This document shows positions 17,158-36,854 of a stretch of DNA of 64,000 nt, one piece after another. Origin of the DNA: Campylobacteraceae bacterium (GTDB taxonomy: Bacteria > Campylobacterota > Campylobacteria > Campylobacterales > Campylobacteraceae). Position numbers and translations under genes: made by a program. Every line of letters begins with the position of its first letter. Positions within the stretch are counted from its first letter, which is position 1. The notes beneath the pieces were generated by a model, which searched no databases, was not told the DNA's origin, and worked only from the letters and a program-made list of their open reading frames with translations. The DNA lies in assembly GCA_047974135.1 (NCBI GenBank), contig JBKECC010000082.1, positions 1,391 to 65,390 of the forward strand. The letters run 5' to 3'.

Positions 17158-18142
17158 AACAGCTTTTGTGATTGAAACAATACTAAAAGTTATCTTCGTT
17201 ATGTCCGTATTTGGTGCGATGACTGGCTATGCTACTTATGTTGAGAGAAAACTTTTGGGACTCATGCAAAGAAGACTTGGGCCTATGCACGTTGGACCAT
17301 TTGGACTTTTGCAAGTTGTTTGTGATGGTATAAAACTCTTTATGAAAGAAGATATCATACCTCAAAATGCTATAAAACCAATCTTTCATTTAGCTCCTAT
17401 AATTTCTGTTGTAACAGCGTTTTTAGCCTTTGCAGCAGTTCCATTTTTTCCGGAATTTACAGTTCTTGGATACAAAATAACTCCAATCATCTCTGACATT
17501 AGTGTTGGAATCTTGTTTGTTTTAGCGGTTTCATCGGCTGGGCTTTATGCTCCTCTTCTTGCAGGACTTAGTAGCAATAACAAGTGGTCACTGCTTGGAG
17601 GTGCAAGGGCAGCTATACAACTTTTATCATTTGAAGTTATCACAGGACTCTCCATTTTAGCACCATTGATGCTTGTTGGCTCACTGTCTTTGATTGATAT
17701 AAATAACGCTCAAATTGGCGGCATAACAGAGTGGATTGTTTGGAAGCAACCAGTTGCATTTATACTTTTTTTAATTGCAGGATTTGCTGAGACAAATAGA
17801 ACTCCACTTGATTTATTAGAAACCGAAGCCGAGATAGTTTCTGGTTATGCTACAGAGTATTCAGGTATGAGATGGGGATTTTTCTTCATGGGTGAATATG
17901 CAAACATGATAACCATATCATACTTAGCAAGCTTCTTATTTTTAGGTGGTTTTAACCCTCTTTGGATAATCCCTGGTGGAGTTATGATATGTTTAAAAAT
18001 CATGGGATTTATACTTTTATTTATGTGGGTAAGAGGTGCTTGGCCTCATATAAGACCTGATCAATTGATGTGGCTTTGTTGGAAAGTTTTGATGCCAATA
18101 GCACTTATAAACATCCTAATCACTGGTTTGATGTTACTTTAA
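17150..18142 (+). CDS. nuoH: NADH-quinone oxidoreductase subunit H
   Basis: Polytopic membrane subunit, 330 aa. Confidence 0.9.
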   Translation: MSETAFVIETILKVIFVMSVFGAMTGYATYVERKLLGLMQRRLGPMHVGPFGLLQVVCDGIKLFMKEDIIPQNAIKPIFHLAPIISVVTAFLAFAAVPFFPEFTVLGYKITPIISDISVGILFVLAVSSAGLYAPLLAGLSSNNKWSLLGGARAAIQLLSFEVITGLSILAPLMLVGSLSLIDINNAQIGGITEWIVWKQPVAFILFLIAGFAETNRTPLDLLETEAEIVSGYATEYSGMRWGFFFMGEYANMITISYLASFLFLGGFNPLWIIPGGVMICLKIMGFILLFMWVRGAWPHIRPDQLMWLCWKVLMPIALINILITGLMLL

Positions 18143-18226
18143 GGAGTTCTTGTGAGTTTAGATTTATTTAATAACCGAAACACGACAGGCTACATAGAGT
18201 TAAAGGTATAAAAAACTCCAAATACA

Positions 18227-18769
18227 ATGTGGGATTTTTTCAAAAGAGTTGTTAGAAGAACCTTTAAAAAAGAGCTTTTTACAGGTATGAGGATAGTTCT
18301 TTTTGAAATGCTAAAGGGTAGAAAAAACAACCATACTATAAAGTATCCACTCGAGAGATTTGTGATAGGTCCTAGATATAGAGCTATTCATGAACTATTA
18401 AGACTTTTAGAGAGTGGAAATGAGAGATGCATCGGTTGTGGACTTTGTGAAAAGATTTGCGTAGCAAACTGCATCAGAATGGATACTGATGTAGATGAAA
18501 ATGGAAGAAAAGTAATCTCAGAGTACTCTATAAATTTTGGACGATGCATATTTTGTGGGCTTTGTGCAGAGGTTTGTCCAGAACTTGCTATAGTTCATGG
18601 AAGTGAGTATGAAAATGCAAGCGAACAAAGAGCACATTACGCATTAAAAGAGGATATGTTAACCCCTATTGATACATTTAAGGCAAAAAAACAAAAAGAG
18701 TTTGAAGGGTTTGGCACACCAAGTCCCAACGCCGATAAAAATATCAAAAAAACACCATTAACTTACTAG
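18227..18769 (+). CDS. nuoI: NADH-quinone oxidoreductase subunit I
   Basis: Two CxxCxxCxxxCP ferredoxin motifs. Confidence 0.9.
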
Positions 18770-18779
18770 GAGAGAAGCG

Positions 18780-19316
18780 ATGTATGAAGCTGTAGCATTT
18801 TATCTTTTTGCGATATTGACCATATTTTTCTTTAGCGTAACGGTTTTTAGCAAAAATGCACTTTTTTCTATGAGTTCTCTTGCTGCTGGCATGATTTTCA
18901 TAGCTGGATTTTTCTTTTTGCTTGATGCTGAATTTTTAGGAGTTGTGCAAATCGTAGTTTATACAGGTGCGGTTATGGCGCTTTATGCCTTTGGTATGAT
19001 GTTTTTTGATACAACAAAAGATGTAAAAGAGAGGGTTGCTTACAAAAGAGTTATCTACACTCTTAGTTTTATTTGCGCGATTTTAATAGTTTTGATTTTA
19101 ATTGCACCTCTTTATAGTGTAAATATAGCTCCAGTTTTACCTATGAGCAGTGATTTTGACAATACACAAATGCTTGGTAGAGTTTTGTTCACAAAATACT
19201 TAGTTGCTTTTGAATTAACAGCAGTAATGCTTCTTGTTGCGATGGTTGCAGGCATAGTTCTTGCAAGTAAAAAGATAAATCAAGACTTTGAGATAGCACA
19301 AGATGGAGGAAAATAG
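18780..19316 (+). CDS. nuoJ: NADH-quinone oxidoreductase subunit J
   Basis: Membrane subunit in operon position. Confidence 0.8.
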   Translation: MYEAVAFYLFAILTIFFFSVTVFSKNALFSMSSLAAGMIFIAGFFFLLDAEFLGVVQIVVYTGAVMALYAFGMMFFDTTKDVKERVAYKRVIYTLSFICAILIVLILIAPLYSVNIAPVLPMSSDFDNTQMLGRVLFTKYLVAFELTAVMLLVAMVAGIVLASKKINQDFEIAQDGGK

Positions 19317-19619
19317 ATGATAACATTAACTCATTATCTTATCCTCTCAGGGATTCTTTTTTCCATCGGCTTAGTTGGTGTTTTAAGACGTAAAAACTTA
19401 CTTATGTTATTTTTCTCAACAGAGATTTTACTAAATGCCACAAACATTGGACTTGTTGCAGTTTCTAAATATTATATGGATTTAACAGGGCAAATGTTTG
19501 CACTTTTTATAATTGCCATAGCGGCAAGTGAAGTTGCGGTTGGACTTGGACTTTTGGTTCTTTGGTACAAAAGAACTGGCTCGACTGATCTTGATAGTTT
19601 AAATGTGATGAAAGGCTAA
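19317..19619 (+). CDS. nuoK: NADH-quinone oxidoreductase subunit K
   Basis: 100-aa 3-TM subunit. Confidence 0.85.
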   Translation: MITLTHYLILSGILFSIGLVGVLRRKNLLMLFFSTEILLNATNIGLVAVSKYYMDLTGQMFALFIIAIAASEVAVGLGLLVLWYKRTGSTDLDSLNVMKG

Positions 19620-19622
19620 GAG

Positions 19623-21476
19623 ATGGAAAAACTTTTATATATAGCACTTTTTTCACCACTTGTTGGAGCACTTTTTGCCTCTTTGTTTGCGATGAGCAAA
19701 AAAAATATTATAACAGGAGTTGTAAATTCAACTCTTATAGCTATTTCAACTATAAGCTCATTAATACTTCTTTGCTCTCTTAGAGACGGGGAAAGTTTAC
19801 ATGTAAATATGATGGAGTGGATAAGTGCAGGAAATTTAGCCATTCCTTTTGGATTTGTGGTTGATAAAGTCTCAGTCATTATGATGGTAACAGTTGGCGT
19901 TGTTTCAACCTTGGTTCATGTTTACTCTATAGGCTATATGTCTCACGATAGAAGTTTCAATAGATTTTTTGCATATTTAAGCGCCTTTGTTTTTTCTATG
20001 ATGGTACTTGTCATGAGTGACAACTTTTTAGGACTTTTTATAGGCTGGGAAGGTGTTGGACTTTGTTCTTGGATGTTGATTGGTTTTTGGTATGAAAGGC
20101 AAAGTGCTTCTTGGGCTGCAAACGAAGCTTTTATCATGAATAGAATAGCAGATCTTGGTATGCTTCTTGGTATATTTTTGATTTATTGGCAGATTGGAAG
20201 CTTACAGTATGATGTTGTTTTTAGTGCAATTTCCTCGCTTGATACATCAGTTGTTATAATCATCGGTATTTTACTTTTTATTGGTGCGATGGGAAAATCA
20301 GCACAGTTTCCACTTCACACTTGGCTTGCAGATGCGATGGAAGGACCAACTCCTGTTTCAGCACTTATCCACGCCGCAACGATGGTAACGGCCGGTGTTT
20401 ATCTTGTAATTCGTGCAAATCCTATATATACGCTAATTCCCGATGTTGGGTTTTTTATAGCATGTCTTGGAGCTTTTGTTGCGATTTTTGCAGCGTTGAT
20501 GGCACTTGCAAACAATGACTTGAAGCGAATTATCGCTTACTCAACTCTTTCACAACTTGGATATATGTTCGTTGCAGCTGGACTTGGCGCATACTGGATA
20601 GCGCTTTTTCACTTAATGACACATGCATTTTTTAAATCATTACTGTTTTTAGGTGCAGGAAATGTTATGCACGCAATGCATGATGAGTTAAATATAAAAA
20701 AGATGGGTGGATTGTATAAATCTCTAAAGATAACTGCGATTTTAATGATTATAGCCTCCGTTGCACTTGCTGGTATTTGGCCTTTTGCTGGATTTTTCTC
20801 AAAAGATAAGATACTTGAAGTTGCATTTAATGAGCAAGCGTATATCTTATACGGAGCTCTTTTTGTTGGAGCCGGACTTACAGCATTTTATAGCTTTAGG
20901 CTAATTGCTTTAGTCTTTTTTGGTAAAAAAGAGTATGAAAAACTTGGCGTTCATCCTCATGAAGCAAGCTCAGTGATGCTTTTAGCGATGCTTCCTCTTG
21001 GAGTATTAGCCATGATAGCTGGATTTTTTGAAAAGCCTTTTCACTCATTTGTAACTTCACTTTTGCCTGATTATATTTTTACTTTTAATCATGACTTGAT
21101 TTATATAATGATAGCGGCAACTTTGAGTATAGCACTATTTGGTATCCTTTTTGCTCTTTACATGTATATAAAAAAAGGTGGATTTTCGTCAAATATAGAA
21201 AAAACTGGTATTTATAAAATTTTATCAAATCAGTATTTTATACCACAGTTTTATCAAAACTACATAGTAAAACCATTTATCGCAGTAGCAAACTTTACAT
21301 GGAAAAAACTTGATGAGAGTTTGGTTGATGCCTCAGTTGATGCCATAGCAAAACTACTTTATAGAAGTGGAGAAGGTGCTAGAAAAATGCAAAGCGGAAA
21401 TCTCTCAACCATGCTTAGATGGATGGTTGTTGGTATCACGATTTTACTTATAACAGCAATTTTTTACAAAGCTTAA
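19623..21476 (+). CDS. nuoL: NADH-quinone oxidoreductase subunit L
   Basis: Antiporter-like subunit, 617 aa. Confidence 0.9.
   Translation: MEKLLYIALFSPLVGALFASLFAMSKKNIITGVVNSTLIAISTISSLILLCSLRDGESLHVNMMEWISAGNLAIPFGFVVDKVSVIMMVTVGVVSTLVHVYSIGYMSHDRSFNRFFAYLSAFVFSMMVLVMSDNFLGLFIGWEGVGLCSWMLIGFWYERQSASWAANEAFIMNRIADLGMLLGIFLIYWQIGSLQYDVVFSAISSLDTSVVIIIGILLFIGAMGKSAQFPLHTWLADAMEGPTPVSALIHAATMVTAGVYLVIRANPIYTLIPDVGFFIACLGAFVAIFAALMALANNDLKRIIAYSTLSQLGYMFVAAGLGAYWIALFHLMTHAFFKSLLFLGAGNVMHAMHDELNIKKMGGLYKSLKITAILMIIASVALAGIWPFAGFFSKDKILEVAFNEQAYILYGALFVGAGLTAFYSFRLIALVFFGKKEYEKLGVHPHEASSVMLLAMLPLGVLAMIAGFFEKPFHSFVTSLLPDYIFTFNHDLIYIMIAATLSIALFGILFALYMYIKKGGFSSNIEKTGIYKILSNQYFIPQFYQNYIVKPFIAVANFTWKKLDESLVDASVDAIAKLLYRSGEGARKMQSGNLSTMLRWMVVGITILLITAIFYKA
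19796..19807. repeat. palindrome TTTACATGTAAA (12/12)
   Basis: Inside nuoL, read as LHVN. Confidence 0.9.
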
Positions 21477-21483
21477 GGAGAAT

Positions 21484-23013
21484 ATGTTGGAGTATATACT
21501 AATTTTTATCGTTCTTTTTCCAGCACTTGGAGGATTTTTAGGCTTTGTGGTTGATAAAGACAATATAAAAGCTTACGGCATAGTTGTAGCAGGCATTGAG
21601 CTTATCTTCACACTTGTTTTGTGGGGTATGTTTGATAGTACAAATGCCGATTTTCAATTTTTAACTCTTATGCCAGTCATAGAGCAGTTTGGTATAAATT
21701 TTGCACTTGGAGTTGATGGAATCTCGCTATTTTTAGTGATTTTAAGTGCATTTATAACTTTGGTTGCTCTCATTGGATTAGGTGAGATGAAAAACATGAA
21801 ACACCTTATAGTTTCCATCTTGTTTTTAGAGATGACTATGGTTGGTGTGTTTTTAAGCCTTGATGTTATTATATTTTATCTATTTTGGGAACTTTCACTT
21901 GTTCCTATGCTTTATATCATCGGTGCTTGGGGTTCAAATCTTAGAATTTACGCAGCTATAAAATTTTTCTTATATACCTTTGCTGGTTCTATTTTGATGC
22001 TCGTTGGCATTTTATACTTTGGTTACATGTATCATGAGACAACTGGTATTTGGAGTTTTTCGCTTCTTGATTGGCAAATTTTGAGTGTTCCTCTTGGTGT
22101 TCAAAACTGGTTATTTGGAGCTTTTTTCTTAGCTTTTGCAGTTAAAACTCCTATGTTTCCATTTCACACTTGGCTTCCTTACGCTCACGGACAAGCACCA
22201 ACCATTGGTTCGGTTATACTTGCAGCAGTTTTACTAAAGATGGGAACTTATGGATTAGTTAGATTTTTACTTCCACTTTTTCCTGATGCGACAGTATCTT
22301 TTTTGACGCCTATAGCAATTATCGCTGTTATTATGGTTATATATGCAGCACTCATTGCTTATGTGCAAGAAGATATGAAGCAGGTTATCGCTTATAGTTC
22401 TATCTCTCACATGGGAGTTATAGTGCTTGGCGTTTTTGCGCTAAACGTTGAAGGTGTGACTGGTTCTGTGTTTTTCATGTTAAGCCATGGCATTGTGAGT
22501 GGAGCTTTGTTTATGCTTGTTGGGGTTATATATGATAGACGCCATACAAAGATGATGAGTGAATTTGGTGGATTAGCTAAGATTATGCCTCTTTATGCCA
22601 CTATCTTTGCTATCGTTTTAATGGGCTCAGTCGGACTTCCACTAACAAGCGGATTTGTTGGAGAGTTTTTATCTTTAGCTGGATTTTTCAAAGCAAACTA
22701 TGTTTTAACTGCTCTTGCGGGACTTGGTATAATCCTTGGAGCTGCTTATATGTTAAGACTATATAGAAAATCTTTTTTTGGCGAAGTTACAAACGAGAAA
22801 AACAAAAACTTAAAAGATTTAAACAAAAACGAACTTTTTGCTCTTGTGCCACTCACTCTTTTGATTGTCGTGCTTGGTATTTACCCAAAACCAGTTTTAA
22901 ATCCAATCGAATCAAGTGTTAAAAAGACTATAACTATCATGCAAAACAAAGCGCAAACTGCAAAAACAACGCAGTTTTTGGATAAAGTAAATACAAAAGT
23001 GGAGGTACAATAA
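21484..23013 (+). CDS. nuoM: NADH-quinone oxidoreductase subunit M
   Basis: Antiporter-like subunit, 509 aa. Confidence 0.9.
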   Translation: MLEYILIFIVLFPALGGFLGFVVDKDNIKAYGIVVAGIELIFTLVLWGMFDSTNADFQFLTLMPVIEQFGINFALGVDGISLFLVILSAFITLVALIGLGEMKNMKHLIVSILFLEMTMVGVFLSLDVIIFYLFWELSLVPMLYIIGAWGSNLRIYAAIKFFLYTFAGSILMLVGILYFGYMYHETTGIWSFSLLDWQILSVPLGVQNWLFGAFFLAFAVKTPMFPFHTWLPYAHGQAPTIGSVILAAVLLKMGTYGLVRFLLPLFPDATVSFLTPIAIIAVIMVIYAALIAYVQEDMKQVIAYSSISHMGVIVLGVFALNVEGVTGSVFFMLSHGIVSGALFMLVGVIYDRRHTKMMSEFGGLAKIMPLYATIFAIVLMGSVGLPLTSGFVGEFLSLAGFFKANYVLTALAGLGIILGAAYMLRLYRKSFFGEVTNEKNKNLKDLNKNELFALVPLTLLIVVLGIYPKPVLNPIESSVKKTITIMQNKAQTAKTTQFLDKVNTKVEVQ

Positions 23014-24476
23014 TGGAAAATATCACATTTGATACTTTAAATCTTGCAACTATTGTGCCGATGTGTATCGCTATCGTTGGAGCTTTAATCATACTTTGTA
23101 TAGATATAGTAAAAAGCTCTCTATCAAAAAGCTTTTATACTATGCTAACCATCTTAGTTCTTTTGATGGATTTAGGAGCTATTTTACTTTTTAGCTCAAA
23201 CGAGAGAGGCTTTTTTGATATGATGCTTGTTGATGGCATAGCCTTGCTTTCGCAAATCATCATCTTGGTGGCTTCCATGCTTTTTATACCGCTTGCACTT
23301 AGTAAAACAGACTTTAATGAACACAAATTTGCAGAGTATTTTGCACTATTTTTGTTCATGATTGCTGGTTTTCAATTTATGGTGGCAACAGAAAACCTCA
23401 TACTTATCTTTTTAGGATTAGAGACTGCTTCACTTGCACTTTATGCTCTTATAGCTATGCACGGAAGAACAAAAGCGGTTGAGGCTGCATTAAAGTATTT
23501 TGTGATGGGAGCATTAGCTGCTGGATTTTACGCATTTGGCTCGATGATATTTTATGCACTAACAGGAAGTGTTGAGATTAGTATAATCGTAGAAAGACTT
23601 GGTGAGAGAGGATATGAGCCAATATTTGCAGTGCTTGGAGCGACTATTTTTATACTAGCAACTTTAGCCTTTAAACTCTCGCTCATACCTTTTCACACAT
23701 GGACGCCAGACGTTTATGAAGGAAGTTCGGCTCCGCTTGCAGGATATATGTCTATAGTTCCAAAGATAGCAGCTTTTGTGGTTGCTATAAGATTTTTTGA
23801 TTTGTTGTTATCTTCAAATCTTACTTGGCTTCACGATATGCTCTATGTACTTGTTGTGCTTACCATGACACTTTCTAACTTGATGGCATTAGTTCAAAGC
23901 GACGTAAAAAGAATGTTAGCATTTAGCTCCATCTCTCACGCTGGTTTTGTTCTTGCAGCTGTTCTCATCAACTCCGAGCAAGGAAACAGTGCTGTTTTTG
24001 TTTACTGGATACTTTTCATGTTTTCAAATCTTGGGGCTTTTTCTATGCTTTGGCTCGCAAGAAACAAACAAAATCTTTGGGATGAGAGATACCAACATCC
24101 ATATATAAAATTTTCAGGGATGATACAAGTTTCACCTATGGCAGCTACACTTATGGGGCTTTTTATGCTCTCTTTGGCCGGGCTTCCACCTTTTTCAGTA
24201 TTTTGGGGCAAAATCTATATCTTAGGAGCTGCTATAAATGCTGGATATGTTATCTTGGCAATTATCATGGCGTTAAACAGTGCCGTCGCTATTTACTACT
24301 ACTTAAAGCTTGTAGTATATATATTTTTAAAAGATCCTATAAGTGAAGATGGCAATATATATATCATAAACTCATCTAAACCGCTAAAAGTTGTAGTTGG
24401 ATTTGCCGCACTTACCACTTTGTTTGCTATATTTTTAGTTGAGCCAATCTTAAAGCTTGTAAGCATTTACATGTAA
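23013..24476 (+). CDS. nuoN: NADH-quinone oxidoreductase subunit N
   Basis: Antiporter-like subunit. Its TAA stop codon is formed by a palindrome copy. Confidence 0.85.
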   Translation: MENITFDTLNLATIVPMCIAIVGALIILCIDIVKSSLSKSFYTMLTILVLLMDLGAILLFSSNERGFFDMMLVDGIALLSQIIILVASMLFIPLALSKTDFNEHKFAEYFALFLFMIAGFQFMVATENLILIFLGLETASLALYALIAMHGRTKAVEAALKYFVMGALAAGFYAFGSMIFYALTGSVEISIIVERLGERGYEPIFAVLGATIFILATLAFKLSLIPFHTWTPDVYEGSSAPLAGYMSIVPKIAAFVVAIRFFDLLLSSNLTWLHDMLYVLVVLTMTLSNLMALVQSDVKRMLAFSSISHAGFVLAAVLINSEQGNSAVFVYWILFMFSNLGAFSMLWLARNKQNLWDERYQHPYIKFSGMIQVSPMAATLMGLFMLSLAGLPPFSVFWGKIYILGAAINAGYVILAIIMALNSAVAIYYYLKLVVYIFLKDPISEDGNIYIINSSKPLKVVVGFAALTTLFAIFLVEPILKLVSIYM

Positions 24477-25626: not shown

Positions 25627-26892
25627 ATGAAGTTTTCAAAACTCATAGCAGCTTCTGCTTTGGTTGTGTTTGGTGTATGCGCACAAGCTGCGGATACTAT
25701 CAAGGTTGGTGTTTTACACTCACTTTCAGGAACGATGGCTATTTCTGAAACAACATTAAAAGATACAGTTTTAATGCTTGTAGAAGAACAAAATAAAAAA
25801 GGTGGACTACTAGGCAAAAAACTAGAAGCAGTTGTAGTTGACCCAGCTTCAAACTGGCCACTTTTTGCTGAAAAAGCAAGAGAGCTTTTAACAAAAGATA
25901 AAGTTGATGTTATCTTTGGTGCTTGGACATCTGTTTCAAGAAAGTCTGTTTTACCAGTAGTTGAAGAGTTAAATGGTTTGATGTTTTACCCTGTTCAATA
26001 CGAAGGCGAAGAGTCATCTAAAAACATTTTCTATACCGGTGCTGCTCCAAACCAACAAGCAATCCCTGCAGTTGATTACTTAATGAATGATGTTGGCGTT
26101 ACAAGATGGGTTCTTGCTGGAACTGACTATGTATATCCAAGAACTACAAATAAAATCTTAGAAGTTTACTTAAAATCAAAGGGTGTCAAGCCAGAAGATA
26201 TTATGATTAACTACACTCCATTTGGTCACTCTGACTGGCAAAATATAGTAAGCGATATCAAAAAATTTGGTAGTGCTGGTAAGAAAACAGCTGTTGTTTC
26301 AACAATCAACGGTGATGCAAACGTTCCTTTTTATAAAGAGTTAGCAAATCAAGGTGTAAAAGCTGAAGATATTCCTGTTATCGCATTTTCAGTAGGTGAA
26401 GAAGAGTTAGCTGGTATTGACACAAAACCACTAGTTGGACACTTAGCTGCATGGAACTACTTCCAAAGTGTAAAATCTCCTGCAAACACAGCTTTTATTA
26501 AAGAGTGGAAAACATTTATAAAAGACAATAAAAGAGTTACAAACGACCCAATGGAAGCAACATATATCGGCTTTAATATGTGGGTAAAAGCAGTTGAAAA
26601 AGCTGGAACTACAAATGTAGATAAAGTTTTAGATGCAATCGTTGGCGTAAGTGTTCCAAACCTAAGTGGCGGCACTTCAACAATGCTTAAAAACCACCAT
26701 ATCACAAAACCAGTGTTAATCGGTGAAATTCAAGAAGATGGTCAATTTGAAATCGTTTGGGAAACAAAAGGTTTAGTTCCTGGCGATGCATGGAGCGATT
26801 TCCTTCCTGAGAGTAAAGACTTAGATGCTGATTGGACAAAACCTATCTTTTGTGGAAGCTACAATACAAAAACAAAAACTTGTTCAAAATAA
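25627..26892 (+). CDS. urtA: urea ABC transporter substrate-binding protein
   Basis: Signal peptide plus type I periplasmic binding fold. First gene of the urtABCDE order. Confidence 0.85.
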   Translation: MKFSKLIAASALVVFGVCAQAADTIKVGVLHSLSGTMAISETTLKDTVLMLVEEQNKKGGLLGKKLEAVVVDPASNWPLFAEKARELLTKDKVDVIFGAWTSVSRKSVLPVVEELNGLMFYPVQYEGEESSKNIFYTGAAPNQQAIPAVDYLMNDVGVTRWVLAGTDYVYPRTTNKILEVYLKSKGVKPEDIMINYTPFGHSDWQNIVSDIKKFGSAGKKTAVVSTINGDANVPFYKELANQGVKAEDIPVIAFSVGEEELAGIDTKPLVGHLAAWNYFQSVKSPANTAFIKEWKTFIKDNKRVTNDPMEATYIGFNMWVKAVEKAGTTNVDKVLDAIVGVSVPNLSGGTSTMLKNHHITKPVLIGEIQEDGQFEIVWETKGLVPGDAWSDFLPESKDLDADWTKPIFCGSYNTKTKTCSK

Positions 26893-26901
26893 ACAAACCT
26901 A

Positions 26902-26923
26902 AGCAGGGATGATTTTCCCTGCT
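26902..26923 (+). terminator. GC-rich stem-loop AGCAGGG-atgatttt-CCCTGCT between urtA and urtB (partial terminator/attenuator)
   Basis: 7-bp stem, 8-nt loop, followed by TTATCTTT, 10 nt after the urtA stop. Confidence 0.45.
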
Positions 26924-26944
26924 TTATCTTTAAGGTTAAACATA

Positions 26945-28516
26945 ATGAGACTGATAAAAATTTTATTGCTTAATTTATTAATGATTACATTCTGCTTTTC
27001 AAATAGCAGTTTTGAAGATGAATCAAAAGAGTTAATTAGCGCAAATTTTATAAACAAAGAATTGATTATTAATAAGTTATCGCAAGATTATAAGGATGAC
27101 AAAAAAGTAGAAAATCTACTAACAAATATGTTAGCTGGAAATCTTTACTCATTAAGTGATAGCCTTGTATATGAAGAGAAAAGCAAATACTTTGATTTAA
27201 GTGGTGTTGAGCTTTTACATGTAAACATAGATGAGTTAAAGAAAATAACCATAAATAATAAATTGCGTGGAACTATCCGTTCAAATCTTGTGGTTATAAA
27301 TCTAACTTCAAGCGATGACAAAGTAAGACTGAAAGCCGCAAAAGATTTACTTGCAAACATAAATGAAGATAGTTTAGCTCTTATAGAGACAGCACTTAAG
27401 AGTGAAAAAAACTCTAAAGTGTCTGACGTTTTGCATGAAGGGTTAGATATATTAAATGCCAAATATTTAACTGGCGAGAAACAACTTGACGCCATAAATA
27501 ACCTTGGTGATTACCTTTCACCTCAGGCTCTACAAGTTTTAAATGAGTTAAAAGATTCAAGCGATGAAGCAGTAAAAAATGCAGCAATAGAGTCTATAAC
27601 TTCTATAGAACATTCAAAGAAGTTTTACTCATTTTTGGAGACATTTTTCTTTGGACTAAGCGCAGGCTCTGTACTTTTGCTTGCTGCTATGGGACTTGCT
27701 ATAACTTTTGGAGTTATGAAAGTGATAAATATGGCTCATGGCGAACTTATAATGCTTGGAGCTTATACAACTTACACAGTTCAACAATTAATGCCAAACT
27801 TTATAGGAGCTTCAATCATCGTCTCCATTCCGTTAGCGTTTTTAGTTAGTGCGTTAGTTGGTATTTTAATTGAACGTCTTGTTATAAGACATTTATACAA
27901 AAGACCTCTTGAAGCACTTCTTGCTACTTTTGGTATAAGCCTTATCTTGCAACAGCTTGTTCGTAGTATCTACTCACCACTAAACAAAGAGGTAAAAACT
28001 CCAGAGTGGTTAAGTGGTTCGTTAGAGATAAACAATGTTTTATCGCTAACATACAACAGGCTTTATATCATCATATTTGCTCTGATCGTCTTTGCATTTT
28101 TACTTTTTGTTATGAAGAAAACGTCTTTAGGATTAAAAGTACGTGCTGTTTCGCAAAATAGAAATATGGCAAAAGCGATGGGAATAAAAACAGAATGGAT
28201 TGACGCTCTCACCTTTGGTATAGGCTCTGGCATCGCTGGAGTTGCCGGAGTTGCACTTAGCCAGCTAACAAACGTTGGACCAAATCTTGGACAAGCGTAT
28301 ATAGTTGACTCATTTATGGTTGTTGTATTTGGTGGAGTTGGAAACTTGTGGGGAACACTTATAGCAGCACTAAGCCTTGGAGAGATTTCAAAGATTATAG
28401 AGCCTATAAGTGGAGCGGTGTTAGCAAAAGTTTTAATTTTGATTTTCGTGATTATATTTATACAAAAAAGGCCTCGTGGATTGTTTCCACAAAAAGGCCG
28501 TGATGCTGAGGATTGA
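26945..28516 (+). CDS. urtB: urea ABC transporter permease with ~230-aa N-terminal periplasmic extension
   Basis: Branched-chain-type permease core. Start moved to the ATG at 26945 (RBS AAGG upstream), because the track start at 26909 lies inside the hairpin loop. Confidence 0.8.
   Translation: MRLIKILLLNLLMITFCFSNSSFEDESKELISANFINKELIINKLSQDYKDDKKVENLLTNMLAGNLYSLSDSLVYEEKSKYFDLSGVELLHVNIDELKKITINNKLRGTIRSNLVVINLTSSDDKVRLKAAKDLLANINEDSLALIETALKSEKNSKVSDVLHEGLDILNAKYLTGEKQLDAINNLGDYLSPQALQVLNELKDSSDEAVKNAAIESITSIEHSKKFYSFLETFFFGLSAGSVLLLAAMGLAITFGVMKVINMAHGELIMLGAYTTYTVQQLMPNFIGASIIVSIPLAFLVSALVGILIERLVIRHLYKRPLEALLATFGISLILQQLVRSIYSPLNKEVKTPEWLSGSLEINNVLSLTYNRLYIIIFALIVFAFLLFVMKKTSLGLKVRAVSQNRNMAKAMGIKTEWIDALTFGIGSGIAGVAGVALSQLTNVGPNLGQAYIVDSFMVVVFGGVGNLWGTLIAALSLGEISKIIEPISGAVLAKVLILIFVIIFIQKRPRGLFPQKGRDAED
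27214..27225. repeat. palindrome TTTACATGTAAA (12/12)
   Basis: Inside the urtB N-terminal extension, read as LHVN. Confidence 0.9.
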
Positions 28517-29655
28517 TTGAGATGAAAAGAGAGCCTATTTTATTAAAATTATACAAAAGTGACAGAGGCGGAGTTATGGTTCTTACCTCTTTGTTTATTT
28601 TTGTTATGCTTATATCTTTTTGTAATTTGGTAGTGCCTGCTGGTTCGGTTTTTCATGTATCAACCTTTACGGTTACCATCATAGGAAAGTATTTAGCTTT
28701 TGCACTTTTAGCCTTAGCGCTTGACCTTGTTTGGGGTTATGTTGGGATTTTAAGTTTGGGGCATGGCGTGTTTTTTGCACTTGGTGGATATGCTATGGGC
28801 ATGTATTTAATGCGTCAAATAGGTGATCGTGGAGTTTACTCAAATCCTGAATTGCCAGATTTTATGGTTTTTATGGGATACAAAGATTTGCCTTGGTTTT
28901 GGTATGGTTTTGACAATCCTATTTTTACTTTTGTAATGATTGGTTTGGTTCCAGGCATTTTGGCTTTTATATTTGGTTTTTTTGCATTTCGTTCTCGTGT
29001 TACAGGAGTTTATCTCTCTATCATAACTCAAGCACTAACTTACGCATTTATGTTAGCGTTTTTTAGAAACGATATGGGTTTTGGTGGAAACAATGGACTT
29101 ACAGATTTTAAAGATATATTAGGATTTAACCTTCAAAGTGATGGCACAAGAGTTGGACTTTTGATACTATCATTTATCATGCTTTTGCTTGGTTATCTTG
29201 TTTGTAAGTTTATAGTAAACTCAAGACTTGGTAGAGTTATAACCTCTATAAAGACAAGCGAAAGTCGTGTGCGATTTTTAGGATATAGAGTTGAACAGTA
29301 TAAACTTTTTATATTTGTTGTCTCAGCTGTGTTAGCAGGTATTGCGGGTGCACTTTATGTTCCTCAGGTAGGTATCATAAATCCAAACCTTTTTGCTCCA
29401 CTTTTTTCTATTGAGATAGTTATTTGGGTGGCGATAGGTGGACGAGGAACTCTTTATGGAGCAATCATCGGAGCGTTTGTTGTAAACTTTGCAAGCACAT
29501 ACTTCACATCAGCATTTCCTGAAGTTTGGTTGTATGCTCTTGGTTGATTGTTTGTTCTTGTTACCTTGTTTTTACCACAAGGAATCGCAGGGATTTTACC
29601 AAAAATAAAACTATTTTTAAAAAGTAGAAGTTTACAACAAGGAGCTACAAAATGA
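28513..29655 (+). pseudogene. urtC: urea ABC transporter permease UrtC interrupted by in-frame TGA at 29545-29547
   Basis: After the TGA the same frame continues LFVLVTLFLPQGIAGILPKIK..., the conserved permease C-terminus. It ends at a TGA overlapping the urtD ATG (ATGA). Confidence 0.6.
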
Positions 29656-30428
29656 AGATAAATCCAGAATTTTTAGGTAGCTTTATAAAAGGAAATCGTA
29701 TCTTACTTGTTGATAACGTTAGTGTTAGTTTTGATGGTTTTAAAGCCCTAAACTCACTCTCTTTAGCTATTGATTATTGTGAGCTTAGATGCATTATCGG
29801 TGCAAATGGTGCAGGAAAAAGCACTATGATGGATGTTATAACAGGAAAAACAAAGCCAGATAACGGAGAAGTAGTTTTTGGAAAAAACGTAAATTTGTTA
29901 GAACTTGATGAGCCAACCATCGCAGAGCTTGGAATCGGCAGAAAGTTTCAAAAACCAACTGTTTTTAGCGATTTAAGTGTTTTTGAAAATTTAGAACTTG
30001 CAATGGCTGATGATAAAAGATTTAGAAAGACACTGTTTGCAAAGTTAAAATACTCACAAAGAGACAGAATCGAAGAGACGATGAATCTTGTAGGGTTAAA
30101 AGATTTTTATAAATGTGAAGCAGGTATACTCTCACACGGACAAAAACAGTGGCTTGAGATTGGAATGCTTATCATGCAAAATCCAAAAATCATGTTAGTG
30201 GATGAGCCAGTTGCTGGTATGACACCTGCAGAGGTTGAAAAAACGGGAGAGATTTTAAAAGAACTTTCAAAAACAAGCTCCGTTGTTGTGGTTGAACACG
30301 ATATGGAATTTATAAGAAGTTTGGCTTCAAAGGTAACCGTTTTACATGAGGGTTCAGTGCTAGCAGAGGGTTCAATGCAAAGCATTCAAAACAATGAAAA
30401 AGTAAGAAAAGTTTATTTAGGCGAGTAG
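29652..30428 (+). CDS. urtD: urea ABC transporter ATP-binding protein
   Basis: Walker A GANGAGKST and ABC signature. Confidence 0.85.
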   Translation: MKINPEFLGSFIKGNRILLVDNVSVSFDGFKALNSLSLAIDYCELRCIIGANGAGKSTMMDVITGKTKPDNGEVVFGKNVNLLELDEPTIAELGIGRKFQKPTVFSDLSVFENLELAMADDKRFRKTLFAKLKYSQRDRIEETMNLVGLKDFYKCEAGILSHGQKQWLEIGMLIMQNPKIMLVDEPVAGMTPAEVEKTGEILKELSKTSSVVVVEHDMEFIRSLASKVTVLHEGSVLAEGSMQSIQNNEKVRKVYLGE

Positions 30429-30430: not shown

Positions 30431-31126
30431 ATGTTTAAAGTAGAAAAAATAAATCAGTATTATGGACAAAGCCACACATTAAGAGATGTAAGTTTTGAGT
30501 TAGAGCGTGCAAAATGTACTTGCTTGATGGGAAGAAACGGAGTTGGAAAAACCACATTTTGTAAAGTCGCTATGGGACTTTTAGATATAAAAAGTGGTGG
30601 GATATTTTTTGAAGACAAAGATATCTCAAAACTCTCAGCTGTAAAAAGAGCATCTTTGGGAATTGGCTATGTACCTCAAGGAAGAGAGATTTTCTCATCT
30701 CTAAGTGTAAAAGAAAATTTAGAGATTGGAGTAATGGGAAATAGACACAAGATAAAAAACGTACCAGAAAAGGTATATGAACTTTTCCCTGTTTTAAAAG
30801 ATATGCAAAACAGAAAAGGCGGAGATCTCTCGGGCGGACAACAACAACAATTGGCCATCGGACGCGCTCTTTGTATTGACCCTGTGATGCTTATCTTAGA
30901 TGAACCAAGTGAGGGTATTCAACCAAATATCGTTGCACAAATCGGAGATGTTATAGATTATCTAACAAAAGAAGAGAAGATAACAGTTTTACTTATTGAG
31001 CAAAAACTGCCATTTGCAAGAAAACATGGAGATAACTTTTTTATCATGGATAGAGGTAGCATCATGGCAAAAGGCGAGATGAGTAAGCTTAGCGATGCTG
31101 TTATAAAAGAGTTTTTGTCGGTGTAA
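30431..31126 (+). CDS. urtE: urea ABC transporter ATP-binding protein
   Basis: Walker A GRNGVGKTT and LSGGQQQ signature. Confidence 0.85.
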   Translation: MFKVEKINQYYGQSHTLRDVSFELERAKCTCLMGRNGVGKTTFCKVAMGLLDIKSGGIFFEDKDISKLSAVKRASLGIGYVPQGREIFSSLSVKENLEIGVMGNRHKIKNVPEKVYELFPVLKDMQNRKGGDLSGGQQQQLAIGRALCIDPVMLILDEPSEGIQPNIVAQIGDVIDYLTKEEKITVLLIEQKLPFARKHGDNFFIMDRGSIMAKGEMSKLSDAVIKEFLSV

Positions 31127-31127: not shown

Positions 31128-31877
31128 ATGAGTTTATCTTTTGGGTTTGATAACAATATATTTTCGCTTAACAAAGTAAGTTTGCCAAGTAGATACTACT
31201 ACTTTAAAGAGAAGCAAAACTACGTAAAACTCGTGAGTGTTGGGGAAGGACTTTTTCCAAAAGATAAGATAAATAACACTATAAAACTAACAAACTCATC
31301 GTTAGTGTTAGCAAGCGAAAGCGCTACAAAAGTTTATAAAAGTAGTGAGCATTTTGCTATAAATAGATTTGATTTTGAACTTCAAAACTCTAATCTAGAG
31401 TTTTTAAATGATGAACTTATTTTGTTTAAAAATTCAAAATTATTACAATTTTTTTCTCTTAATTTTGATGAAAATTCAACCTTTTTTTATACTGATTTGT
31501 TAAGCAGTGGAAGAAGTTTTGAGAATTATGATTTTTCATCTTTACATGTAAAGAATAAATTCCTACATAACGGCATTTTAGAGTATTTAGAAGAGTATGA
31601 GATTGGTGGAAATGAAGTCAAAAAATACTTAGAAGATTTCTCACTTGACAAAAGACTTTTTGCAAAGGTTTATGTAAAGATAAAAAATAGTGAAAGCTTT
31701 ACATGTAAACTTTTACATGTAAATGTAAATTCCTATGAATATACGCAAAACAAAGCATTTTTAATAGTTTTAGTAAGTGGAGAGACTATAGGCGATTTAA
31801 AGTCAAAGATAAAAGAGATTTGGAAGATTTATAGAGAAGAGTCTGGTTTAAAAGAGTTTGATTTAGGAAAGTTTTAG
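31128..31877 (+). CDS. ureD: probable urease accessory protein UreD/UreH
   Basis: Called by position directly upstream of ureAB and its ~250-aa size. Sequence is divergent. Contains three palindrome copies. Confidence 0.45.
31541..31552. repeat. palindrome TTTACATGTAAA (12/12)
   Basis: Inside the ureD-like CDS, read as LHVK. Confidence 0.9.
31698..31709. repeat. palindrome TTTACATGTAAA (12/12)
   Basis: Inside the ureD-like CDS, read as FTCK. First of a tandem pair. Confidence 0.9.
31712..31723. repeat. palindrome TTTACATGTAAA (12/12)
   Basis: 2 bp after the previous copy, read as LHVN (protein ...[12 protein letters not shown]...). Confidence 0.9.
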
Positions 31878-31887
31878 AGGAGTTTTT

Positions 31888-32562
31888 ATGTTTTTAACTA
31901 AACGCGAACAAGAAAAATTGATGATTTATACAGCTGCAAAACTCTCATTAGAGAGAAAAGCAAGAGGTTTAAAACTAAATTATCCAGAAGCAGTTGCCAT
32001 TATTAGTCACTTCATCATCGAAGGTGCAAGAGATGGTAAAAGTGTTAGTGAACTTATGAGTAGTGCTACAAAGATTTTAAACAGAGACGATGTGCTTGAC
32101 GGGGTTGCCTACATGCTTGACATGGTGCAAGTTGAAGCAACTTTTGAAGATGGCACAAAACTTGTTAGTGTTCATCACCCAATCCCTGTAGATGAAGATA
32201 ATGAGATAGGCGGATACATCATAGAAGATGGTGAGATAGAGTTAAATGAAAACAGAAACACTATAACCATCGAAGTTGAAAATAGAGGCGATAGACCAGT
32301 ACAAATTGGCTCGCATTATCACTTTTTTGAAGTAAACAAATATCTCTATTTTGATAGAAAAAAAGCTTATGGTATGAGACTTGATGTCCCTTCTGGAACC
32401 TCTGTTAGATTTGAGCCGGGTTCCCACAAGAAAGTCTCACTCATACCGTACAGTGGCAAAAGATTTATAAGCGGATTTAACGGTTTAGTTGAAGGGTTTT
32501 TGGATGATGAAGCTGTAAAGCAAAAAGCCTTGTTAAATTTAAAAACATTTCTAGAGGAGTAA
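31888..32562 (+). CDS. ureAB: urease gamma-beta fused subunit
   Basis: N-terminal 100 aa matches UreA (gamma), remainder matches UreB (beta). Confidence 0.85.
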
Positions 32563-32567
32563 GTTCT

Positions 32568-34265
32568 ATGAAAATCTCAAAAACAAAATACGCTTCTATG
32601 TATGGACCCACTATAAACGATAGATTTAGACTCTCTGACACAAGTTTGATTGCAAGAATAGAGAAAGATTTCACGCTTTATGGTGAAGAGAGTAAATTTG
32701 GTGGTGGAAAAACTATCCGTGATGGCATGAGTCAATCTCCAACTTGCCAAGAAGGGGCAGATTTAATCTTAACTAACGCTATCATCATCGACTACACAGG
32801 GATTTATAAAGCTGATATCGCAATAAAAAATGGCAAGATAAGTGCTATTGGAAAATCAGGAAATCCAAACATAACAGACGGCATAACAGAAGGCATGGAA
32901 ATTGGTGCAAACACAGAGATTTTATCTTGTGAAGGAAAAATCATCACAGCTGGAGGCATCGATACACACATACACTTTATATCGCCAGAACAGATAGATG
33001 AAGCTTTGTCTTCCGGGGTTACGACTATGTTTGGTGGAGGAACTGGACCAAATACTGGAACAAATGCCACTACTTGTACGCCAGGAGCTTGGAATTTGCA
33101 CAAAATGATGCAAAGTGTGGATAACATCCCACTAAACTTTGGTTTTATGGGAAAAGGAAACAGTAGTTCAGGTGAAGCATTAAAAGTGCAGATAAAAGCA
33201 GGGGCTTGTGGCTTAAAACTTCATGAAGATTGGGGTTCAACTCCAAAAGCCATAGATACATGTTTGGGTATCGCTGATGAGTTTGATGTTCAAGTTGCGA
33301 TTCACACAGATACTTTAAATGAGGCTGGATTTGTAGATAGTACCATTGATTCATTTAAAAACAGAATTATCCACACTTTTCACAGCGAGGGTGCAGGAGG
33401 TGGACACGCACCAGATATCATGAAAGTTGTTGGACTTAAAAATATCCTACCTTCATCAACAAATCCAACCTTGCCTTACACAAAAAATACCATAGAAGAG
33501 CACCTTGATATGCTGATGGTTTGTCATCACTTAAGTCCAAAAATCCCTGAAGATGTGAGTTTTGCAGAGAGTAGAATAAGAGGAAAAACCATAGCCGCAG
33601 AAGATGTGCTTCATGACATTGGTGCTATCTCTATAACAAGTTCTGACTCACAAGCTATGGGAAGAGTTGGCGAAGTTATAATTAGAACTTGGCAGGTTGC
33701 AGACTCCATGAAAAAACAACGCGGGAAACTTGACATTGACACATATAAAGATGACAATAACCGCATAAAAAGATATATCGCAAAATACACTATAAACCCT
33801 GCAATCGCTTGTGGGATAGATGAGATTGTTGGAAGTGTAGAAGTTGGCAAAATGGCGGATTTAGTTTTGTGGAATAGGGCATTTTTTGGAGTAAAACCAG
33901 AAATCATCATAAAAGGCGGATTTATAGCTCTTTCAATCATGGGAGATTCAAATGCTTCTATACCAACTCCTGAGCCAAATCTATATAGAAAAATGTTTGG
34001 AAGTTTAGGAAAAGCAGCTGCAAATTCGAGCGTACTTTTTACATCAAAATATGCAAAAGAAAACAACACTTTACCAAAGTTAGATAAAAAAATTGTAGCA
34101 GTAAAAAACACAAGAAATATCTCAAAAGAAAATATGAAATTAAATAACTTCACAGGCGATATAAAGATAGATAGCGAGAGTTATGATGTGTATGTAAATG
34201 GTGAACTTATAGTTTCAAACTTTGTAGATGAGGTTCCACTCGCACGCCGTTATTTTCTATTTTAA
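32568..34265 (+). CDS. ureC: urease alpha subunit
   Basis: 565 aa with amidohydrolase nickel-site motifs (HxH, MVCHHL). Confidence 0.9.
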
Positions 34266-34274
34266 GGATCAAAA

Positions 34275-34709
34275 GTGATAAAAAAAGTTGTTAAACTAAA
34301 CACAAAAGAACATGCAAGCGACAGCGTTGAACTCTCTTGGTTTGATATGCACAAACCAAACCTAACTGCCATAACACAAAAAGGCGTTGAGTTCATAGTA
34401 AAAGTAAAAGGCTCACACTTACATGTAAACGATATTTTAGTTTGTGATGATGGTTACGCTATAGCTATAAACAGGGCACACGATGATGTTTATATCTTAG
34501 AGTTTAAAGATGCTCTTTTATTTGCAAAAACAGCTTACGAGATAGGAAATAGACACCAACCAATCAATATAGAAAACAACAAAATCACAGCACTTCAAGA
34601 CTTAAGCATAGAAGATATCATCTTAAATCTTGAGCGAGATGAAAGTGTAAGCGTGGCAAAAACTAAAACATTTTTTAAGTCAAATGCAAAAGCGTCACAC
34701 TCACACTAA
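34275..34709 (+). CDS. ureE: urease accessory protein UreE
   Basis: GTG start with RBS AAGGA. 144 aa, no His-rich tail. Confidence 0.7.
   Translation: MIKKVVKLNTKEHASDSVELSWFDMHKPNLTAITQKGVEFIVKVKGSHLHVNDILVCDDGYAIAINRAHDDVYILEFKDALLFAKTAYEIGNRHQPINIENNKITALQDLSIEDIILNLERDESVSVAKTKTFFKSNAKASHSH
34418..34429. repeat. palindrome copy cTTACATGTAAA (11/12)
   Basis: Inside ureE, read as LHVN. Confidence 0.9.
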
Positions 34710-35376
34710 GGCGTTAAGTAGATTTACGCAGATACTTGATAGCTCCTTCCCAAATGGAGCTTTTACGCACTCTTTTGGGCTTGAACCATTTGTCTTAGAA
34801 GGTATCATAAAAGATAAAAACTCACTTTTTTCATTCTTGAAAAATGTCATATCATATCAGTATGAAAAGTTTGAATTTCCAATCATCACAAAGGTTTATG
34901 AGTATTGTGAAAGTGGCAAATTGAACCTAATAGTAAAGTTAGATAAAAAGATACAAGCTATGCAAATGTATGAATTTGCAAAAGCCTATAAAAATATCGG
35001 CGAAAACATTTTTTTTCAACTTCAAAACTTAGAGCTTAAAAAGAGTATAACTAAGAGCTATTTTTTACATGTAAAAGATAGAAAAACTCCAGCAAATGAA
35101 ATGGTTATACTTGGTATTTTTGCTTATGAGAGTAGTTTACATGTAAAAGATTTTATGGCTCTTTTTGCAAAGAAAAATCTGATGAATATAGCAACAAGCT
35201 CTCTTAAAGTCTCAAGACTAAAACCAAGTGAAGTGCAAGAGATTTTGTTTATGATCGATGATATTTTAGACGCTTCTGTGGAGAAAAAATATAGTAAAAT
35301 TTCAAACTTCAATCCATTTTTTGAAGAGATTATATTTAAACACAAACATTTAGAACCAAAACTTTTTACAACTTGA
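34684..35376 (+). CDS. ureF: urease accessory protein UreF
   Basis: FPNGAFTHSFGLE motif. Overlaps ureE, so the true start may be later. Confidence 0.7.
   Translation: MQKRHTHTKALSRFTQILDSSFPNGAFTHSFGLEPFVLEGIIKDKNSLFSFLKNVISYQYEKFEFPIITKVYEYCESGKLNLIVKLDKKIQAMQMYEFAKAYKNIGENIFFQLQNLELKKSITKSYFLHVKDRKTPANEMVILGIFAYESSLHVKDFMALFAKKNLMNIATSSLKVSRLKPSEVQEILFMIDDILDASVEKKYSKISNFNPFFEEIIFKHKHLEPKLFTT
35064..35075. repeat. palindrome TTTACATGTAAA (12/12)
   Basis: Inside ureF, read as LHVK. Confidence 0.9.
35136..35147. repeat. palindrome TTTACATGTAAA (12/12)
   Basis: Inside ureF, read as LHVK. Confidence 0.9.
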
Positions 35377-35383
35377 GGATACG

Positions 35384-35974
35384 ATGAAAAGCATAAAAAT
35401 AGGCGTAGCAGGACCAGTTGGAAGTGGCAAAACTTCTTTAATAGAAAGCCTAACAAACTTACTTAAAAACGAACATAAAGTAGCGATTATTACAAATGAT
35501 ATATACACAAAAGAGGATGCAAACTACCTAAAAAGTCACCTTGATATCGATAGTGAAATGATTGTAGGCGTTGAAACGGGAGGCTGTCCGCATACCGCTA
35601 TACGAGATGACATCTCGATGAATAAAAAAGCTTGTATAGAACTTGAAGAGAAGTTTGCACCAGAAATCATCTTTGTAGAGAGTGGAGGAGACAACCTATC
35701 GGCTACCTTTTCTTATGAGCTTGTGGACTTTTACATGTACATTATTGATGTGGCACAGGGTGCCGATATACCAAGAAAAAAAGGTGCAGGACTTTTATAT
35801 AGTGATTTGCTCGTTGTAAATAAAACTGACTTAGCTCCATTTGTTGATGTTGATTTGGTAAGCATGAAAGAGGATGTAGAAAAAAATAGAAAAAATAAGC
35901 CATTTTTGTTTGTTTCTAAAAAAGATAATAACACACTTTTAAAACTCAAAAGTTGGATAGAAGCACTTTTATAA
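35384..35974 (+). CDS. ureG: urease accessory GTPase UreG
   Basis: P-loop GPVGSGKTS. Aligns with H. pylori UreG at equal length. Confidence 0.9.
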   Translation: MKSIKIGVAGPVGSGKTSLIESLTNLLKNEHKVAIITNDIYTKEDANYLKSHLDIDSEMIVGVETGGCPHTAIRDDISMNKKACIELEEKFAPEIIFVESGGDNLSATFSYELVDFYMYIIDVAQGADIPRKKGAGLLYSDLLVVNKTDLAPFVDVDLVSMKEDVEKNRKNKPFLFVSKKDNNTLLKLKSWIEALL

Positions 35975-36325: not shown

Positions 36326-36355
36326 AAAATTATTTGGCAAGGACAAGGATAAAAG

Positions 36356-36592
36356 ATGAAAACTGTAACCATGAGAGTTGATGATGAAACTTATCAAATC
36401 ATAAAAACAGCTGCAGATGGCGAAAGAAGAAATATATCTAATTTTATAGAGTTTGCAACTATGCAGTATCTAAGCTCGTCAGTATATGTTGATGATAGTG
36501 AAATGGACGAAATTTCAAATGATAAAGAGTTAGTTAAAGCCTTAAAACAAGGGTTAAAAGAAGCAAAAGCGAAAGAGTATAAAATTGTATAA
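36356..36592 (+). CDS. type II antitoxin, ribbon-helix-helix (ParD/CopG-like)
   Basis: 78 aa with N-terminal beta-strand KTVTMRVDDETYQIIK. Overlaps the downstream toxin by 8 nt. Confidence 0.6.
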   Translation: MKTVTMRVDDETYQIIKTAADGERRNISNFIEFATMQYLSSSVYVDDSEMDEISNDKELVKALKQGLKEAKAKEYKIV

Positions 36593-36854
36593 TTTCTCTA
36601 TAGCAGAAACTAAAAGTTTTGAAAAATTAAAAGAGAAGTTGGACAAAAAACTATATACAAAAATAGAAACTTATATCTATCCGCAACTTCGTTCAAATCC
36701 TTTTTATGGCACAAATATCAAAAAACTAAAAGGCGAATTTGAAGGATACTATCGATATAGACTTGGAAATTATAGGCTTTTTTATATCATCGACAATGAG
36801 AAAATTTTAGTAATTATAGTTGATTTTAAACATAGGCAAAATTCATACGATTAA
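36585..36854 (+). CDS. type II toxin, RelE/ParE family
   Basis: 89 aa with YRLFYIIDNEKILVIIVDFKHRQNSY, a typical RelE/ParE C-terminus. Confidence 0.7.
   Translation: MYNFSIAETKSFEKLKEKLDKKLYTKIETYIYPQLRSNPFYGTNIKKLKGEFEGYYRYRLGNYRLFYIIDNEKILVIIVDFKHRQNSYD

What the first reader, a model, noticed from the sequence alone, without database searches (positions are those of the whole stretch)
28513..29655. In-frame TGA inside urtC with a conserved permease C-terminus continuing downstream
The urtC ORF stops at TGA 29545-29547 (…PEVWLYALG*). The same frame continues LFVLVTLFLPQGIAGILPKIKLFLKSRSLQQGATK and ends at a TGA that overlaps the urtD start (ATGA), the normal coupled junction. The extension is the conserved last TM helix of branched-chain-type permeases, and the TGA sits where a TGG Trp codon would fit. 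This is therefore a G-to-A nonsense mutation (pseudogene or strain-specific truncation), a sequencing error, or stop-codon readthrough. The adjacent urtD/E and urease genes are intact, so the functional state of urea uptake is in question.
Basis: seen in the sequence. Interest (0 to 1): 0.55.

Follow-up and report, generated by a model that had tools for sequence, protein, structure and literature searches.

The report
Single-base premature stop in urtC
One base change (GGA glycine to TGA stop) cuts the urea-transporter permease gene urtC short inside its last membrane helix in this metagenome-assembled Arcobacter-like genome. This is an ordinary recent nonsense mutation or a consensus error, not recoding.

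Summary
urtC (start most likely ATG 28522) is interrupted by an in-frame TGA at 29545-29547. The same frame runs on for 35 codons to a TGA that overlaps the urtD ATG (ATGA, 29652-29655). The UrtC profile TIGR03408 aligns end to end across the stop.

No ortholog has Trp at this position. The 80 loci compared have Ala (43), Gly (34), Ser (2) or Leu (1), and 7 of the 8 closest relatives shown carry GGA (one GGT). The lesion is therefore a G-to-T change at 29545.

- The lost tail keeps every invariant residue (F344, T348, P352, G354, G357).
- UrtC has not diverged faster than UrtA, B, D or E, so the event is very recent or an artefact.
- TGA is a normal terminator elsewhere in the window.
- There is no SECIS-like fold and no UCA-anticodon tRNA in the window.
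- No relative has a stop here, so recoding is not supported.
- None of about 36 other genes checked against profiles is interrupted or clearly truncated.

The sequence comes from a MAG (NCBI MFV0481461.1, annotated as an intact 341-aa UrtC). I found no second copy of this organism, so a real allele and a consensus error cannot be told apart without reads. Interest is low.

The parts
25627..26892 (+). urtA, urea-binding protein, intact
   Evidence: TIGR03407, 571 bits, profile 1-361 of 361
26909..28516 (+). urtB, permease with an N-terminal HEAT-like extension, intact; ends in TGA
   Evidence: TIGR03409, profile 2-291 of 291 reached at residue 531 of 535. HEAT_2 match in the N-terminal part.
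28522..29547 (+). urtC 5' ORF (341 codons plus the premature TGA); identical to NCBI MFV0481461.1
   Evidence: PF02653 covers only 3-251 of 269.
29545..29547 (+). Premature in-frame TGA at a Gly/Ala position. Inferred ancestral codon GGA, so the changed base is 29545 (G to T).
   Evidence: Window reads TATGCTCTTGGT TGA TTGTTTGTT; relative L006 reads TATGCTCTTGGT GGA TTGTTTGTG.
29548..29655 (+). urtC 3' remnant: 35 codons (second half of the last TM helix plus the C-terminal tail) and the ancestral TGA stop overlapping the urtD ATG
   Evidence: Invariant F344, T348, P352, G354 and G357 are all retained.
29640..29644 (+). AGGAG Shine-Dalgarno sequence for urtD, inside the urtC tail
   Evidence: Read directly from the sequence
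29652..30428 (+). urtD, ATPase, intact
   Evidence: TIGR03411, profile 2-242 of 242
30431..31126 (+). urtE, ATPase, intact
   Evidence: TIGR03410, profile 2-230 of 230
31128..35974 (+). Urease cluster: ureD, fused ureAB (gamma+beta), ureC (alpha), ureE, ureF, ureG. All are uninterrupted ORFs.
   Evidence: Pfam matches. ureAB, ureC, ureF and ureG are covered almost end to end; UreD covers 2-152 of 201 and UreE_C 3-68 of 87 profile positions.
29526..29546 (+). Two copies of the heptamer TTGGTTG (29526-29532 and 29540-29546). The T at 29545 completes the second copy.

Best explanation
A single G-to-T transversion at 29545 turned a conserved glycine codon (GGA) into TGA. I think this is most likely a real and very recent nonsense allele carried by the dominant population in the sample.

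Translation of urtC would stop after residue 341, in the middle of the last hydrophobic helix (about residues 333-358). That removes the near-invariant motif LFVxVTLxLPxGxxG and the cytoplasmic tail.

I infer that the truncated permease is misfolded or inactive, so high-affinity UrtABCDE urea uptake is impaired while urease itself stays intact. urtD loses its stop-start coupling to urtC but keeps its own AGGAG.

Shown: the base change, its position relative to orthologs, the conservation of the lost segment, and the intact neighbours. Inferred: that the T is real in the organism, and that the truncation abolishes function.
For: - Stop position and tail.
- All 80 orthologous loci have a sense codon at the site (A 43, G 34, S 2, L 1). 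Seven of the eight closest relatives shown have GGA.
- 20 aligned orthologous proteins (73-78% identical) continue through the site.
- Tail residues F344, T348, P352, G354 and G357 are invariant in 78-80 of 80 loci, and all are retained in the window.
- The site lies inside the last hydrophobic segment and inside helix 333-350 of a low-confidence model.
- About 36 other genes matched against profiles show no interruption or clear truncation, and there are no frameshifts. The assembly is therefore not generally error-prone.
- The T completes a TTGGTTG quasi-repeat 14 nt downstream of an identical copy. This fits a templated replication error, though only weakly.
Against: - The source is a MAG and no reads are available.
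- There is no second copy of this organism in any collection searched, so the base cannot be cross-checked.
- The tail and the rest of the operon are perfectly preserved, and UrtC has a normal relative rate (1.69 against 1.29-1.82 for the other subunits). A consensus error would produce exactly the same picture.
- A deleterious allele that is the majority in a population while the other Urt and urease genes in the cluster stay intact is somewhat unexpected.
Confidence: 0.5

Rival explanations
1. Consensus error: the organism carries GGA, and the T at 29545 is an error of sequencing, assembly, polishing or strain-mixture consensus in the MAG. urtC would then be a normal 377-codon gene and urea uptake would be intact.
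For: - The sequence is a single MAG contig, with one database record and a cluster of one member.
- One base is enough to restore a perfect ortholog-like gene.
- There is no other sign of decay in urtC or the operon.
Against: - No other interrupted gene or frameshift was seen in the window (about 36 genes matched to profiles, ORFs closely packed along all 64 kb), so the error rate looks low.
- The site is not in a homopolymer.
Confidence: 0.38
2. The stop is real but is bypassed, so function is partly kept. Either low-level UGA readthrough by a near-cognate tRNA occurs, or the ribosome terminates and then reinitiates at the TTG directly after the TGA (29548). The second route would give a 35-residue last-helix peptide that reassembles with the 341-residue fragment as a split permease.
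For: - A TTG follows the TGA immediately, giving a mechanical 35-aa ORF.
- The tail is fully conserved.
Against: - There is no Shine-Dalgarno-like sequence in the 18 nt before the TTG.
- Relatives with no stop also have TTG/TTA/CTT Leu at that codon, so the TTG is ancestral and not an adaptation.
- No relative among the 80 loci and 120 listed proteins is split or has a stop here.
- The context is UGA-U, which from my own knowledge of E. coli work is an efficient termination context.
- No stimulatory structure is present (z = -1.06; 32 of 200 shuffles fold as well).
Confidence: 0.08
3. Programmed recoding of TGA: selenocysteine, or a TGA=Gly (code 25) or TGA=Trp (code 4) genetic code.
For: The ancestral residue is Gly, which is what TGA encodes in genetic code 25. 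I regard this as a coincidence.
Against: - TGA ends at least 11 long ORFs in the window. For several of them, homology profiles reach their last positions just before the stop: UrtB, MoaA, ModD, RlmB and an HP0838-family lipoprotein. The urtC tail also ends in TGA.
- The only tRNA in the window is tRNA-Glu.
- There is no SECIS-like hairpin.
- No ortholog has Cys or Trp at the site.
- The nearest relatives by sequence are Arcobacteraceae and other Campylobacterota, a group that to my knowledge uses code 11.
Confidence: 0.01

Closest known systems
UrtC, permease subunit of the UrtABCDE urea ABC transporter (NCBIfam TIGR03408; Pfam PF02653 BPD_transp_2, the LivH/LivM-type permease family)
   Same: The profile match is far above the cutoff (438 against 296 bits). 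The gene order urtA-B-C-D-E followed by the urease genes is the same as in Arcobacter, Marinarcus and Halarcobacter relatives, at 73-79% identity.
   Different: The reading frame is broken 35 codons before the family's normal end. No other family member examined ends here.
Ordinary young nonsense pseudogene, or a consensus error in a MAG
   Same: There is a single in-frame stop at a codon that is a sense codon in all orthologs. Homology continues in the same frame, there is no further decay, and the neighbours are intact.
   Different: Nothing distinguishes it from this class. The public annotation lists the 341-aa product as a normal UrtC, not as a pseudogene.
Genetic code 25 (TGA = Gly, Gracilibacteria/Absconditabacteria) and bacterial selenocysteine insertion
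   Same: The TGA sits at a position that is Gly in the nearest relatives.
   Different: TGA is a working terminator throughout the window. There is no SECIS-like fold and no suitable tRNA in the window, and the relatives are Campylobacterota.

Membership tests
UrtC (TIGR03408 equivalog) | Whole-protein score above the curated cutoff, with end-to-end profile coverage | tested here: met
   The conceptual fusion with X at the stop scores 438 bits against a cutoff of 296.2 and covers profile positions 2-313 of 313.
UrtC (TIGR03408 equivalog) | Encoded in a urtABCDE operon | tested here: met
   UrtA, B, D and E equivalogs flank it in the canonical order. Relatives show the same synteny.
UrtC (TIGR03408 equivalog) | Uninterrupted ORF that includes the last TM helix | tested here: not met
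   TGA at 29545-29547. The ORF alone covers PF02653 positions 3-251 of 269. All 80 orthologous loci continue at least 24 residues further.
Nonsense pseudogene | Stop at a position that is a sense codon in orthologs, with homology continuing downstream in the same frame | tested here: met
Nonsense pseudogene | The base is real in the organism (supported by reads) | not testable with these tools
   No reads are available, and no second copy of this organism was found.
Selenocysteine recoding | SECIS hairpin just 3' of the UGA, and Cys or Sec at the homologous position in relatives | tested here: not met
   The fold of 29530-29610 has z = -1.06, and 32 of 200 shuffles fold as well. Orthologs have A, G, S or L and never Cys.
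Alternative genetic code (4 or 25) | TGA is not used as a terminator and is frequent in-frame in conserved genes | tested here: not met
   At least 11 long ORFs end in TGA. Several have profiles ending at the stop. I found no other in-frame TGA that splits a gene.
Programmed stop-codon readthrough or a split gene | The stop or split is conserved in related genomes | tested here: not met
   None of 80 loci and none of the 119 other listed proteins has it.

The most novel reading that the evidence does not exclude
The T is real and the gene still works as a two-piece permease. Ribosomes terminating at UGA would restart at the adjacent UUG and make a 35-residue peptide (last half-helix plus tail) that reassembles with the 341-residue fragment. 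That would be a naturally split LivM/UrtC-type ABC permease caught at its origin.
Probability: 0.03. Interest if true: 0.45.

Novelty: already known. Interest (0 to 1): 0.1.

Why it matters
The main value is practical. The public record annotates this 341-aa product as a normal UrtC, so any gene-presence inference would score this MAG as capable of high-affinity urea uptake. In the deposited sequence the permease lacks half of its last membrane helix.

If the base is real, this is a fresh loss-of-function allele in an otherwise intact Urt transporter and urease cluster, which hints that the transporter was dispensable where the sample was taken. If it is an error, it is one wrong base. Neither outcome bears on any open mechanistic question.

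Tried and rejected
- **Trp/TGG origin:** rejected. No ortholog has Trp at the site.
- **Alternative code or Sec:** rejected.
- **A second in-frame TGA at 40974-40976:** rejected. This junction is simply MoaA followed by a separate radical-SAM gene.
- **Long-term decay of urtC:** rejected by the relative-rate comparison and by retention of all invariant tail residues.
- **Looking for the same organism elsewhere.** Nothing usable came back:
  - The protein database had only the deposited truncated protein, and the next hit was 78% identical.
  - The best species-representative genome was 79% identical.
  - The exact-protein contig look-up found nothing on record.
  - Two metagenome DNA scans around the site gave 0 hits.
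- **Structure:** the AlphaFold model of the homolog P0008 was poor (pLDDT 50). I did not use it for fold search, only as weak support that one helix spans the site.
- **PDB sequence and profile searches:** these found no solved relative, only chance hits.
- **Literature search for UrtC plus pseudogene:** it listed five papers, none on this subject judging by title and abstract start; I did not open any of them.

Full report
**Observation.** The window carries a urtABCDE urea-transporter operon followed by the urease genes ureD, ureAB, ureC, ureE, ureF and ureG.
- In urtC an in-frame TGA lies at 29545-29547 (…PEVWLYALG*).
- The same frame continues as LFVLVTLFLPQGIAGILPKIKLFLKSRSLQQGATK and stops at TGA 29653-29655.
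- That stop overlaps the urtD start codon at 29652-29654. An AGGAG sequence lies 7 nt upstream of it.
- The coordinate 28513 is only the first possible TTG. The likely start is ATG 28522, preceded by GAGGA. It matches the N-termini of most orthologs and the deposited protein.

**The downstream frame is the real end of the gene.**
- A conceptual fusion matches the UrtC equivalog TIGR03408 over positions 2-313 of 313, straight across the stop (438 bits, cutoff 296.2).
- The 341-codon ORF alone reaches only position 251 of 269 in PF02653.
- In 80 orthologous loci from many phyla the protein continues 24-93 residues beyond this site, with a median of 33.
- Positions F344, T348, P352, G354 and G357 are invariant or nearly so (78-80 of 80). 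The window's tail keeps all of them.
- In the nearest relatives urtC ends 27-37 residues after the site. In several of them it abuts or overlaps the urtD start (ATGA in L002 and L073, TAATG in L001), so the ATGA here is the ancestral junction.

**What the stop replaced.** That is not supported.
- The position is Gly or Ala in all 20 aligned orthologous proteins (73-78% identical).
- Across the 80 loci it is Ala (43), Gly (34), Ser (2) or Leu (1), and never Trp.
- Seven of the eight closest relatives shown have GGA and one has GGT.
- L006 reads TATGCTCTTGGT-GGA-TTGTTTGTG. The window reads TATGCTCTTGGT-TGA-TTGTTTGTT.
- The lesion is therefore one G-to-T transversion at 29545.

**Consequence for the protein.**
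- Hydropathy places the last hydrophobic segment at about residues 333-358, and the stop replaces residue 342.
- A low-confidence AlphaFold model of a 78%-identical homolog also has one helix at 333-350 spanning the site (pLDDT 50). I treat this only as weak support.
- The truncated product therefore ends in the middle of its last transmembrane helix and loses the most conserved C-terminal motif.
- Loss of function is my inference from that conservation. It has not been shown.
- No solved structure of a relative exists by sequence or profile search.

**Recoding is not supported.**
- At least 11 long ORFs in the window end in TGA.
- For several of these, homology profiles reach their last positions just before the stop: UrtB, MoaA, ModD, RlmB and an HP0838-family lipoprotein. 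The urtC tail also ends in TGA.
- The only tRNA in the window is tRNA-Glu.
- RNA downstream of the UGA folds no better than shuffles (z = -1.06).
- No relative has a stop, Cys or Trp at the site.
- The codon after the stop is TTG, a possible restart. It is the ancestral Leu codon, since relatives have TTG, TTA or CTT there, and it has no Shine-Dalgarno sequence before it.
- From my own knowledge, UGA followed by U is an efficient termination context in E. coli.

**Age of the lesion.**
- There is no second defect in urtC.
- The lineage-specific divergence of UrtC, measured as the distance from the window to relatives divided by the distance among relatives, is 1.69. The values for UrtA, UrtB, the UrtB core, UrtD and UrtE are 1.32, 1.29, 1.82, 1.41 and 1.57.
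- The gene has therefore not been drifting. The change is either very recent or not real.

**Real allele or error?**
- The sequence comes from a MAG. The only identical database protein is NCBI MFV0481461.1, [quoted passage not shown]. It is 341 aa, sits on one 65,390-bp contig and forms a cluster of one.
- The next-closest protein or genome is only 78-79% identical.
- The exact-protein look-up and two metagenome DNA scans around the site returned nothing. The base cannot be cross-checked with these tools.
- Arguing against a sloppy assembly: about 36 other genes matched to profiles show no interruption or clear truncation, ORFs are closely packed along the whole 64 kb, and I saw no frameshift.
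- The site is not in a homopolymer.
- A minor point: the T completes a second copy of TTGGTTG, 14 nt after the first. This could reflect a templated replication error, but the weight is small.
- I put a real recent nonsense allele at about 0.5, a consensus error at about 0.38, and functional bypass at about 0.08. Recoding I consider essentially excluded.

**Comparison with the known, and verdict.**
- This is a UrtC gene by profile and operon context. It fails the one criterion of an uninterrupted frame.
- It behaves like an ordinary young nonsense pseudogene or a one-base error.
- Nothing here is new in kind, and interest is low.
- The practical point is that the public annotation treats the truncated product as a normal UrtC.

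Noticed in passing
window 32713-32997 (-): Rfam RF02514 (5' ureB sRNA, a Helicobacter antisense RNA) matches at 102 bits over the full model, antisense inside the urease alpha-subunit gene. No sigma-70-like promoter was found on either strand of 32500-33300. The match probably reflects conservation of the coding sequence and not an expressed sRNA.
   Followed up: partly
window 26901-26924: A perfect 9-bp-stem hairpin (AAGCAGGGATGATTTTCCCTGCTT) lies between the urtA stop and urtB and overlaps the mechanical urtB start codon at 26909. It may be an intra-operon attenuator after the binding-protein gene. If so, the true urtB start may lie further downstream.
   Followed up: no
window 26909-27640: UrtB carries an N-terminal extension of about 240 residues with a HEAT-repeat match, in front of the 291-position permease core. 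Relatives from several phyla have the same long form, 520-583 aa. It is therefore normal for this family, but I do not know of an assigned function for it.
   Followed up: partly
window 29526-29546: The heptamer TTGGTTG occurs twice, 14 nt apart. The T at 29545 that creates the stop also turns TTGGTGG into the second perfect copy. This could be a quasi-repeat-templated mutation.
   Followed up: partly
window 10679-24476: By ORF sizes and order this looks like a nuo (complex I) operon; apart from the two ORFs named here it was not checked against profiles. An 80-aa PF16514 protein (13603-13845) and a 279-aa ORF with only a short NuoG-like stretch (13835-14674) lie between the ORFs I take to be nuoD and nuoG, where NuoE and NuoF would be expected. 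This is the arrangement known from Campylobacterota.
   Followed up: no
window 36353-36854: A ParE-family toxin gene (36585-36854; PF05016) is preceded by an overlapping 79-codon ORF with no family match, presumably its antitoxin. The pair lies in the gap between ureG and miaA.
   Followed up: partly
window 8776-10509 and 1-1683 (-): The first is a 577-aa AAA+ ATPase with a winged-helix domain and weak similarity to the anti-phage ATPase IteA and to CdvC. The second is a 561-residue ORF running off the left edge of the window, with no match in NCBIfam or Pfam.
   Followed up: no
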